Assembly (NCBI GenBank): GCA_964016885.1
Contig: OZ024760.1
Location: 620,001 to 684,000, forward strand
Reading direction: 5' to 3'
DNA: 64,000 bases
DNA from: Eledone cirrhosa
Lineage: Eukaryota
The notes below the pieces were generated by a model that was not told where the DNA came from, ran no database searches, and worked only from the letters and a program-made list of their open reading frames with translations. Positions within the stretch are counted from its first letter, which is position 1; every line of letters begins with the position of its first letter. Below, piece by piece: positions 16,443 to 18,220 of this stretch. A program made the translations under genes and the position numbers.

Positions 16443-18220
16443 TGTAGGAGGTGAGTTTTATTGTAGTACAATAAAGCAATGCAGATATCGGATAAGAAGC
16501 ACTCTACAGTTTGTGGGACTGGAGTATGCATAATATAAGATCAAAAGATGGTTAAAGGAGTTCCATATATTTTATTATGCGCATTTCAAAAACAAACATC
16601 ATCATGCAATAATATTTGTGTTTTCATCAGATAAAACAGGAGAACATGATATGAAGGCTAAAAAACACTTGTGGATAGTGCAGTTTTAAATCAACATATG
16701 AAAAGTGGTTTTAGATTGATGTGTGATATTGGGAAAAATATTTTATTTAGAGAGGGGGGGGAAGAGATGAGAGGGAGAGATGAGTGATAGAGAGAAAGAG
16801 ATAGTTTTTATAACTGAGAGGAGATATATTTTTTACATAGAGAGGTTGAAAACCGTTGGAAGATACTGTATAAATTAAAAATTTTGAAAATTAACGAAGG
16901 GAGGATATGTGCGAGGAAAAAATATTTTATTTAGGGAGGGGGGTGGAGAGGATGAAAAAAAGGGGGAGGAGATGAGAGTGAAGGTGGAGAGGGAGAGATG
17001 GGTGATAGAGAGAAAGAGATAGTTTTTATAACTGAGAAAAAGATATATTGTTTTAATATAGAGAGGTTGGGAACCGTTGGAAGATAATGTATAAATTAAA
17101 GGAATTTGAAAATTAACGAAGGGAAATTATGTATGAAGATAGAGAGAAAAAAATAATAATTGTGGGTGAATATTCTAACGTCAAAAAAAGAAATGTATGT
17201 ATTGTGGCAATTTCAAAATTAGCGAAGAGAAAAATTGTTAAGGTTTGTGTGTAGAAGGATTTGAGAAAAATAATGTGAAGTTAAAGTTTGTATATTGATT
17301 GAATTGATAATATATGCGAATAAAGAGTTAATATGTATTAATAATGAGTTCGTTGATGGGGAGAAAAAAATAATAATAAATTAAGGATGAAATTGAGATT
17401 AAAAAGATTTATGATAGAGAGAAAAAATAATAATGATTGCGGATGAATATTCTAATGTCAAAACAAATGTTATGATTTTACGAGAAGATAGAATGAGGGT
17501 AATGAGTAAACGAGTATTATAGAGTGTATAATGCCCTTTAAAGTAAGGTAGATGGGTATATTTTAAAGAGGTGTATGTATATGTGCCTTTGAGAAAAGAT
17601 TCTAAATTGATAAAGAATTGAATATTAACTGTATACTTTGTGAAAAGTTCTATGGAATTTATGCAGGCAGATAGAAAACAAATCTGTGCGTCTATTTATT
17701 ATAGAGTCTAGGTTAGAGATAATGGTAAATTTTTCATTTAGGCAGAGATTACAGATTTTAGATAGAGAGCTGTTCAAGTATGAGGATGCAGAAGAAATCT
17801 TCTTCCAAAAGATGGTATATTTAATGTTTTTGTCTTTTAAGGACCATATGAGTTCTGAGAGAGCAGTGTTAGTTCTTTTAAGTTTGTATTTGAAAGATGA
17901 ATGATGATTATAGAGACGAGCTTTAAAAGAGGTGGAAGTGGAGCCAAAATAGGTGAAGGAATTGGTGCTAGTTATAATTTTACATTCATAACCTCTCTAA
18001 ATAAAATATTTTTCCCAATATCACACATCAATCTAAAACCACTTTTCATATGTTGATTTAAAACTGCACTATCCACAAGGTGTGTTTTTTAGCCTTCATA
18101 TCATGTTCTCCTGTTTTATCTGATGAAAACACAAATATTATTGCATGATGATGTTTGTTTTTGAAATGCGCATAATAAAATATATGGAACTCCTTTAACC
18201 ATCTTTTGATCTTATATTAT
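16443..18220 (-). mobile_element. Penelope-like element 3' portion with HHR-bearing pseudo-LTR and an inverted pseudo-LTR at the 5' truncation
   Basis: GIY-YIG end, about 1.2 kb 3' region, HHR at 16569-16637 (-). 17993-18220 is the reverse complement of about 16510-16755. Flanked by (TA)n on both sides. Confidence 0.82.
17625..17990 (-). pseudogene. 5'-truncated C-terminal GIY-YIG endonuclease of a Penelope-like element (121 aa open frame, no start codon)
   Basis: Manual translation: YECKIITSTNSFTYFGSTSTSFKARLYNHHSSFK...TALSELIWSLKDK...W...CNLCLNEKFTII...INRRTDLFSICLHK..* This shows Y/YFG, R..NH, CxLC..EK and N.R...CxH motifs. Absent from the ORF track. Confidence 0.85.

What the first reader, a model, noticed from the sequence alone, without database searches (positions are those of the whole stretch)
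16443..18220. Unannotated GIY-YIG frame physically links one HHR family to an autonomous Penelope-like element
Seen: a 121-codon stop-free frame (17990 to 17625), missed by the ORF track, encodes a C-terminal GIY-YIG domain with CxxC and CxH. It is followed by about 1.2 kb of 3' sequence ending in the TGCGCA-family HHR in the same sense. An inverted copy of the terminal repeat caps the 5' truncation, and (TA)n lies on both sides. Established: inverted pseudo-LTRs at 5'-truncated ends are a Penelope hallmark. Inference: this enzyme type is the likely (TA)n-cutting driver for the fold-back elements, and the undamaged frame suggests a young family.
Basis: partly seen in the sequence, partly recalled or inferred. 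Interest (0 to 1): 0.72.

Follow-up and report, generated by a model that had tools for sequence, protein, structure and literature searches.

The report
Young Hydra-clade Penelope retrotransposon stub
This is the cut-down tail of a young, very abundant jumping gene of a known kind (Hydra-type Penelope), and the ends of its many genomic copies suggest that each insertion is likely copied twice from one uncut RNA, once from each strand of the broken DNA.

Summary
The frame at 17990-17625 is residues 701-821 of an 821-codon RT plus GIY-YIG ORF found open elsewhere in this genome (9 of 150 scored copies). The full protein has DKT, CxCX5C, CxxC/CxH and no CCHH, which places it in the Hydra clade (Craig 2021, which already lists an octopus member). 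This copy is a non-autonomous stub.

The family is young (EN median 99.5% nucleotide identity) and has at least 6,154 terminal-repeat arms. 167 of 178 ends abut (TA)n. Ends fall at two sites about 88 nt apart, and 57 of 61 head-to-head insertions carry one of each. The small palindromes end at one base, 124 nt before the predicted ribozyme cut, with an extra G in 1,195 of 2,421 cases: likely run-off at a capped start. The two arms are coupled in length, which favours twin priming on one uncut RNA (inferred).

The window's other palindrome family has its own Hydra ORF. The scan already noted the two-end rule, twin hairpins and capped start on other DNA. Verdict: new member of a known kind, with a testable mechanistic footprint.

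The parts
16131..16442 (.). (TA)n-rich target array on the long-end side
16443..16529 (-). About 88-nt 'tail' between the short (S) and long (L) end sites. It is the start of the next unit in tandem copies. The L end shares a few bases with the TA flank.
16499..16525 (-). Bulged hairpin 1 (RCTCC...G NN GAGYGC) just 3' of the S site. Its twin lies just 3' of the L site in full units and is not in this copy. Predicted RT start signal (inferred).
   Evidence: at +51 and +141 in 9 of 9 units, 0 in 500 shuffles
16576..16630 (-). Type I hammerhead motif: CTGATGA core, long AU-rich helix II, palindromic helix III ATGCGCAT, AUA triplet, predicted cut after 16576
   Evidence: no Rfam hammerhead hit; cleavage untested
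16696..16702 (-). Inr-like TTCA+1TAT. The A at 16699 is the fixed 5' end of thousands of short arms, likely the capped transcription start.
16443..17624 (-). 3' non-coding segment (1,182 nt) with internal ~220-nt and ~277-nt duplications, ending in the pseudo-LTR
17625..17990 (-). C-terminal GIY-YIG endonuclease remnant, residues 701-821 of the 821-codon Hydra-type ORF; no ATG, no RT, no CxCX5C linker
17992..18220 (+). Inverted arm of 229 nt with a second hammerhead (18120-18174), ending at the S site; blunt junction to the EN frame
18221..18342 (.). (TA)n target array on the short-end side
18342..18754 (.). Separate, more diverged palindromic mini-insertion of the same family (L + S ends, two hammerheads, arms 92% alike)
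11039..11295 (+). Solo short copy of the same family with an L end, starting at about the fixed 5' site

Best explanation
This is a 5'-truncated, non-autonomous copy of a young, high-copy Penelope-like retrotransposon with Hydra-clade motifs, inserted in (TA)n, whose head-to-head shape was likely made by priming reverse transcription from both strands of the cut target on one uncut RNA. Shown by sequence: the full unit (about 3.7 kb) has one 821-codon RT + GIY-YIG ORF, a long 3' UTR and a pseudo-LTR with a hammerhead motif. Ends fall at two fixed sites (S, L) about 88 nt apart, each just 5' of a matching bulged hairpin. Inferred steps: (1) Pol II starts at an Inr-like A 124 nt before the hammerhead cut and caps the RNA. 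(2) The RT-EN protein, likely a dimer, nicks both strands of (TA)n. (3) One RT starts at L from one DNA end and the other at S from the other end, on the same pseudo-LTR copy of an RNA that the ribozyme has not cut. (4) Each cDNA stops independently, and their 3' ends are joined through 0-4 nt overlap or filler. Priming at the downstream pseudo-LTR gives long truncated arms, as in this copy. Priming at the upstream one makes both cDNAs run off the cap, often adding a base opposite it, and gives the ~420-bp palindromes, which are then by-products and not a separate MITE family.
For: Identity: 150 of 150 scored genome matches are 98-100% identical with no stops, and 9 have 815-821-codon frames. 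Hydra motifs are present. Among 6 full ORFs there are 229 synonymous and 158 non-synonymous codon differences over 15 non-independent pairs. Two end classes cover 178 of 178 termini. 57 of 61 contiguous head-to-head insertions are S+L (P 5e-13 against 0.5). In 38 large ones the S arm is longer in 23, the L arm in 13, and 2 are symmetric; snap-back of one cDNA cannot give the 23. The partner arm is the closest or tied sequence in 23 of 30 (median 7 differences per 600 nt against 21.5). Fixed 5' end: 2,421 non-templated junctions there, against 225 one base downstream and 80 at another C position. G makes up 1,195 of 2,421, against 22 of the first 100 listed and 18 of 80. Only 7 matches with one native upstream 16-mer variant have a non-C base, none G, and 0 of 30 G loci have native upstream sequence. 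Coupling: only 3 of 38 EN-bearing insertions have a partner confined to the start-to-end region (39% expected, P 1.5e-5). 38 of 39 two-armed insertions with a start-ended arm have a partner confined there, all S+L (de-duplicated by coordinates). In vitro precedent: a Poseidon PLE nicks and extends both strands, starts at two internal sites bounding the tail, uses uncleaved RNA and is modelled as a dimer (PMC11167929). An untemplated 5' G is read as a cap signature for L1 (PMC9341517).
Against: All mechanism is read from genomic footprints; no RNA or biochemical data. No tree with labelled clade references was built. RWK reads RWT and the unit is longer than the published <3 kb. In 7 of 30 insertions a non-partner arm is closer than the partner. 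11 of 30 junction Gs could equally be the partner arm's next base. In the sister family 11 of 30 non-C loci have native upstream sequence by eye, and 3 of these are G, so its cap signal is weaker (10 G of 19 junctions). 9 of 11 internal tandem pseudo-LTR copies reach upstream of the inferred start, so templates longer than a start-to-end transcript must exist (read-through or circular). 4 of 61 insertions are S+S or L+L. The large insertions were selected for carrying the EN, which biases arm lengths.
Confidence: 0.72

Rival explanations
1. Same Hydra element, but the inverted arm arises by self-priming or snap-back, either of the single cDNA or on an antisense template, as proposed for Adineta Penelopes.
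For: The arms share private variants, many small copies are near-perfect palindromes, and the published proposal exists (PMC3846280 passages). It fits the 13 L-longer and 2 symmetric large cases, and this window's copy.
Against: In 23 of 38 large insertions the S arm reaches further 5' than the L arm while the L arm carries 88 nt that the S arm lacks, which one folded cDNA cannot give. Some junctions have an extra base on both arms (L183/L184).
Confidence: 0.15
2. Twin priming, but on two separate RNA molecules, for instance held together by the palindromic hammerhead helix III.
For: Helix III is a perfect palindrome, and such hammerheads are thought to act as dimers (PMC4209133 passages). Two RNAs from one source locus would also give near-identical arms.
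Against: It does not predict one S plus one L end (57 of 61) or the coupling of arm lengths around the inferred start (3 of 38 against 39% expected).
Confidence: 0.1
3. The small palindromes are a MITE-like subfamily copied as whole units, and the fixed 5' end with its G is an inherited founder junction or an RT pause at RNA structure, not a capped start.
For: Some junctions recur exactly, such as the ATAT or CATATG overlap. No RNA data locate the start.
Against: The 30 G loci have many different junction partners, solo and long insertions also stop there, the stop is single-base sharp (2,421 against 225), and a sister family stops at its own TC|ACT.
Confidence: 0.12
4. The element belongs to Penelope/Poseidon, Neptune or Nematis.
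For: C-terminal GIY-YIG, hammerhead and inverted pseudo-LTR are shared by all these clades.
Against: No CCHH, no CX2-5CxxC, no DKG and no GxKF/Y; DKT, CxCX5C, CxxC and CxH are present (against section 11).
Confidence: 0.03

Closest known systems
Hydra clade of C-terminal EN+ Penelope-like elements, including Hydra-1_Obim of Octopus bimaculoides and Penelope-13_HM (Craig et al. 2021, PMC8557442; abstract, passages, sections 11, 12, 15, supplement parts 1, 2, 7 of 59 read)
   Same: Single RT-EN ORF, DKT, CxCX5C linker, no CCHH, CxxC and CxH around E and N, hammerhead, (TA)n target. An inverted 5'-truncated copy is noted for Penelope-13_HM. By eye the N-terminal 400 residues run colinear with Hydra-1_Obim.
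   Different: A distinct family. The unit is about 3.7 kb against <3 kb, with a 1.2-kb 3' UTR and an Asn/Thr-rich stretch before the linker. RWT replaces RWK. Helix III is an even palindrome, where the Hydra hammerheads listed in File S2 all start helix III with AC. The tail is 88 nt against 30-40 nt. Thousands of young copies.
Poseidon element PAc of Anolis (Frangieh et al. 2024, PMC11167929; parts 1-2 of 4 read)
   Same: Two internal RT start sites bounding the tail, AT-rich target, both strands cut and extended, uncleaved RNA as template, predicted dimer.
   Different: A different clade. The parts read report no difference in start site between strands and do not describe one-S-one-L pairing, a capped run-off or twin hairpins. 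There the start sites lie inside the ORF; here they precede it.
Adineta vaga EN+ Penelopes (Arkhipova et al. 2013, PMC3846280; passages) and D. virilis Penelope promoter (Schostak et al. 2008, PMC2377424; passages)
   Same: Inverted pseudo-LTR with a tail on one side only, an Inr-like TCACT in the pseudo-LTR, a pseudo-LTR promoter, N-rich ORF inserts.
   Different: There the head-to-head form is explained by self-priming on an antisense template; the counts here favour sense-templated twin priming.
Non-LTR retrozymes (bioRxiv 10.64898/2026.07.22.740005; part 1 of 5 and passages)
   Same: Short non-coding, type I hammerhead-bearing PLE derivatives.
   Different: Retrozymes are head-to-tail tandem arrays; the TGCGCA mini-elements are head-to-head and look like by-products made anew.

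Membership tests
Penelope-like elements (EN+) | Single ORF with RT and a GIY-YIG endonuclease | tested here: met
   821-codon ORF with YRDD at 378 and C-terminal GIY-YIG. Pfam is silent on the full protein and weak on the EN. Only the EN part is in this copy.
Penelope-like elements (EN+) | Partial tandem or inverted pseudo-LTRs with an optional tail | tested here: met
   11 internal tandem copies and 61 contiguous head-to-head insertions
Penelope-like elements (EN+) | Hammerhead motif in the pseudo-LTR | tested here: met
   Descriptor match and helices I/II in the fold; no Rfam hit; activity untested
Hydra clade | DKG changed to DKT | tested here: met
   DKT at 144, no DKG
Hydra clade | RWK motif present, GxKF/Y not conserved | tested here: inconclusive
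   RWT at the RWK column, where most aligned relatives have RWK; no GxKF/Y
Hydra clade | Linker CxCX5C instead of CX2-5CxxC | tested here: met
   CxCX5C at 680-688, no CX2-5CxxC
Hydra clade | [quoted passage not shown] | tested here: met
   CxxC at 780, CxH at 808; only one Cys (703) inside the GIY-YIG core
Hydra clade | Insertion into (TA)n | tested here: met
   167 of 178 termini against 16.8% background
Hydra clade | Generally short (<3 kb); a tendency in the paper, not a strict criterion | tested here: not met
   Eight units of 3,686-3,864 nt and one of 3,486 nt; the excess is 3' UTR and an Asn/Thr-rich stretch
Hydra clade | Groups with Hydra in RT phylogeny or CLANS | not testable with these tools
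   Labelled reference sequences were visible only in a paper's supplement, cut at 400 residues; compared by eye only
Penelope/Poseidon, Neptune, Nematis | CCHH motif in the EN; DKG | tested here: not met
Naiad/Chlamys | N-terminal EN, no canonical hammerhead | tested here: not met
   The EN is C-terminal and a hammerhead motif is present

The most novel reading that the evidence does not exclude
Hydra-type Penelope elements integrate by obligatory twin priming. A protein dimer binds two matching hairpins 90 nt apart on one capped, uncleaved RNA, starts one cDNA from each strand of a (TA)n break, and joins the two cDNA ends. This one rule would explain the inverted pseudo-LTR, the one-sided tail and the thousands of ~420-bp palindromes (cap run-off products), and it maps the promoter and RT start signals to the base.
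Probability: 0.55. Interest if true: 0.72.

Novelty: new member of a known kind. Interest (0 to 1): 0.42.

Why it matters
The element type is published, so the link between hammerhead and GIY-YIG is not a surprise. What is useful is a young Hydra family with open full-length ORFs and thousands of precise footprints. Craig et al. name the origin of tandem/inverted structures and the microsatellite bias as open questions. The footprints turn these into direct tests: which strand uses which start site, one RNA or two, what the twin hairpins do, and whether the ribozyme must stay uncut. They also show that short hammerhead palindromes in (TA)n should be annotated as Penelope ends and not as MITEs.

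Tried and rejected
Rfam scans gave no hammerhead hit; the listed top hits of the window scan were microsatellite-driven miRNA matches below threshold. Pfam found neither RT nor EN in the full ORF or in 12 aligned relatives. Profile searches of solved structures gave nothing useful. The AlphaFold job on the EN alignment did not finish, so there is no fold or Foldseek result. A DNA search with the finding's own end returned nothing because common words are skipped. Sequencing runs: no RNA holder listed, so expression is open. DNA contigs of two other coded organisms cover parts of the ORF at low depth; I drew nothing from this, nor from the contig depth gradient. The first window BLAST was swamped by TA hits; only its motif scan and fold were used. 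RNAalifold on the S-L region gave no clean consensus. The de-duplication flag and the 'native' flag were unreliable, so I recounted by coordinates and by eye. No intron could be placed in the leader, which has nine upstream ATGs. L001-L030 were left out of counts because they duplicate later, longer fetches; L111 is the window itself; L037 and L090 gave no terminus anchor; 2 of 63 head-to-head pairs failed the contiguity filter (both S+L). Rejected: a host gene or standalone homing endonuclease (thousands of repeat copies with RT upstream), Naiad, and this family as driver of all the window's palindromes.

Full report
OBSERVATION. The frame is real: 121 codons and a stop at 17990-17625 on the minus strand, without ATG. 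It matches Pfam GIY-YIG weakly (E 0.0012, below cut-off). Support comes from relatives: 4,695 protein representatives at E<=0.001, 10 of 91 aligned sequences hitting PF01541, conserved Y, Y-G, R, H, E, N, and a GIY-YIG top cluster in the ESM Atlas at 0.93. Downstream lie 1,182 nt to the end at 16443. The hammerhead core is at 16630-16576, so 133 nt follow it. Upstream, a 229-nt inverted copy of the end (17992-18220) joins bluntly and lacks the last 87-90 nt. (TA)n arrays flank both sides.

WHAT IT IS. The own genome (G000, 3.0 Gb; host not identified) gave 150 scored matches out of 56,375 candidates, all 98-100% identical and without stops. 59 were 100% identical, including this copy, and 9 had open frames of 815-821 codons. 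The full ORF (P0002) has RT motifs (YRDD at 378) and ends in our peptide as residues 701-821. Section 11 of Craig et al. 2021 defines the Hydra clade by RWK, DKT, a CxCX5C linker, no CCHH, CxxC and CxH beside E and N, a hammerhead and (TA)n insertion. P0002 has DKT, CxCX5C, CxxC and CxH, lacks DKG, CX2-5CxxC and GxKF/Y, and reads RWT. The paper's supplement lists Hydra-1_Obim from an octopus, and an inverted 5' copy in Penelope-13_HM. Its first 400 residues match P0002 in order by eye. No tree with labelled references was built. Units measure 3,686-3,864 nt in eight cases and 3,486 nt in one, longer than published Hydra elements. EN nucleotide identity to 98 copies has a median of 99.5%. Six full ORFs are 98.3-99.6% alike with more synonymous than non-synonymous differences. 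Exact matches to one 32-mer of the terminal repeat number 3,733 + 2,421 = 6,154, a lower bound on arms.

ENDS. All 178 termini examined fall in two classes, S (+43 to +53 from the predicted cut) and L (+128 to +137), and 167 abut TA-rich flanks against a 16.8% background. In tandem copies the S-L tail continues into the leader and ORF of the next unit. Of 63 head-to-head pairs, 61 were contiguous and 57 of these were S+L, 2 S+S and 2 L+L. Among 38 large S+L insertions, selected for carrying the EN, the S arm reached further 5' in 23, the L arm in 13, and 2 were symmetric. Junction overlap was 0-4 nt in 32 of 57. A single cDNA folding back cannot yield the 23. In 30 of 59 insertions with both arms of 600 nt or more, the partner arm was the closest or tied sequence in 23 (median 7 differences against 21.5), and a non-partner was closer in 7. 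Following a lead from earlier scan notes, I found a bulged hairpin motif at +51 and +141 in 9 of 9 units and in 0 of 500 shuffles; the first hairpin recurs in the sister family with a compensatory change.

THE SMALL PALINDROMES. Short arms pile up at one base, the A of TTCATAT, 124 nt before the cut. Genome-wide, 2,421 matches have a non-templated base before it and 1,195 of these are G. One base downstream there are 225 (G in 22 of the first 100 listed), and at another C position 80 (G in 18). With one native upstream variant intact only 7 non-C matches exist, none G (other upstream variants not counted). None of 30 G loci has native upstream sequence; in 11 the G could be the partner's next base and in 19 it could not. 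An untemplated 5' G is read as reverse transcription of the cap for L1 (PMC9341517 passages). Arms are coupled. Only 3 of 38 EN-bearing insertions have a partner confined to the start-to-end region, where 39% is expected if arms were independent (P 1.5e-5). Of 43 insertions with a start-ended arm, 38 have an inverted partner confined there (all S+L), 4 are solo or unclear, and 1 has body sequence between two such arms (recounted by coordinates). Against a simple picture, 9 of 11 internal tandem copies reach upstream of this start, so longer or circular templates also exist. The sister family shows a similar but weaker signal: 127 non-C matches, G in 44 of the first 100 listed, but 11 of 30 inspected have native upstream sequence.

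HOW IT LIKELY WORKS. Shown: the anatomy and counts above. Inferred: a capped transcript from the pseudo-LTR; nicking of both strands of (TA)n; one RT starting at L and one at S on the same pseudo-LTR copy of an uncut RNA; independent stops; joining of the two cDNA ends. Every copy reads through the predicted ribozyme cut, so the template was uncut or rejoined. This agrees with the Poseidon protein in vitro, which cuts and extends both strands, starts at two sites that bound the tail, needs no ribozyme cleavage and is modelled as a dimer (PMC11167929). The published alternative is self-priming on an antisense template (PMC3846280). A pseudo-LTR promoter is established for D. virilis Penelope (PMC2377424), and palindromic helix III with dimeric action is typical of PLE hammerheads (PMC4209133). 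The unconstrained fold keeps helices I and II but not III.

THE DRIVER CLAIM. The TGCGCA palindromes (18342-18754, 11039-11295) are ends of this family. The TAYGTA palindromes are not: they share little beyond the core, and locus L171 links that terminus, with no TA break, to a different Hydra-type ORF 48-51% identical. The 310-bp array at 15044-16137 looks like a retrozyme and showed no ORF link.

NOVELTY. The element is a new family of a published clade. In eight literature searches and the parts of papers read, I did not see the one-S-one-L rule, the capped run-off or arm coupling described for PLEs. The library lacks most subscription journals, the bioRxiv preprint's supplements were closed, and I read 3 of 59 parts of the Craig supplement. 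A 2026 octopus repeat annotation lists recently active Penelope families without naming Hydra (PMC13282606 passages). The scan's own notes reached the same readings on other DNA of this genome and, for the capped start, in other genomes. I had derived the S+L rule and the G signal before seeing them and took the twin-hairpin lead from them; they are not counted as support. Verdict: new member of a known kind; interest 0.42; the twin-priming model has a probability of about 0.55 and would merit about 0.72.

Noticed in passing
window 10205-10490, 24830-25265, 35068-35530, 40505-40553; locus L171 2437-5478: A second palindrome family (TAYGTA hammerhead) with the same geometry (ends about +48 and +139), its own Hydra-type ORF 48-51% identical to P0002, the same bulged hairpin with a compensatory pair change, and a 5' end hot spot at TC|ACT about 137 nt before the cut.
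   Followed up: partly
window 15044-16137: Head-to-head array of 310-bp units, each with a canonical-looking type I hammerhead (AACGCGTT helix III); larger arrays on C1 and C4. Looks like a non-LTR retrozyme. No Hydra ORF in 20 loci and no twin-hairpin motif.
   Followed up: partly
window 44810-44998 (-): Decayed remnant of another Hydra-like GIY-YIG C-terminus with CxxC and a stop, followed by a short 3' segment that ends at a repeat run.
   Followed up: partly
L267/L268 (G000 C1, about 108.428-108.430 Mb): Two G-ended short arms 1.8 kb apart with element body sequence between them, suggesting template jumps after run-off.
   Followed up: no
L031, L056, L071, L091: Four independent long arms stop at about the same ORF position (about 3,060 nt from the L end), a possible RT pause site.
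   Followed up: no
L147, L157, L165, L175: Further Hydra-like ORF fragments 33-48% identical to P0002 lie near family-2 loci, so several Hydra families share these TA arrays.
   Followed up: no
unit leader, inferred start to ORF (about 310-340 nt): Nine ATGs precede the ORF, seven of them upstream of the hammerhead cut; how the ORF is translated (splicing, cleavage, reinitiation) is unexplained.
   Followed up: no
window 14009-14528: Another 254-nt inverted pair (96%) with a 12-nt spacer, partly microsatellite.
   Followed up: no
window 12918-13496 and 20082-20627: 35-bp and 39-bp minisatellite arrays.
   Followed up: no
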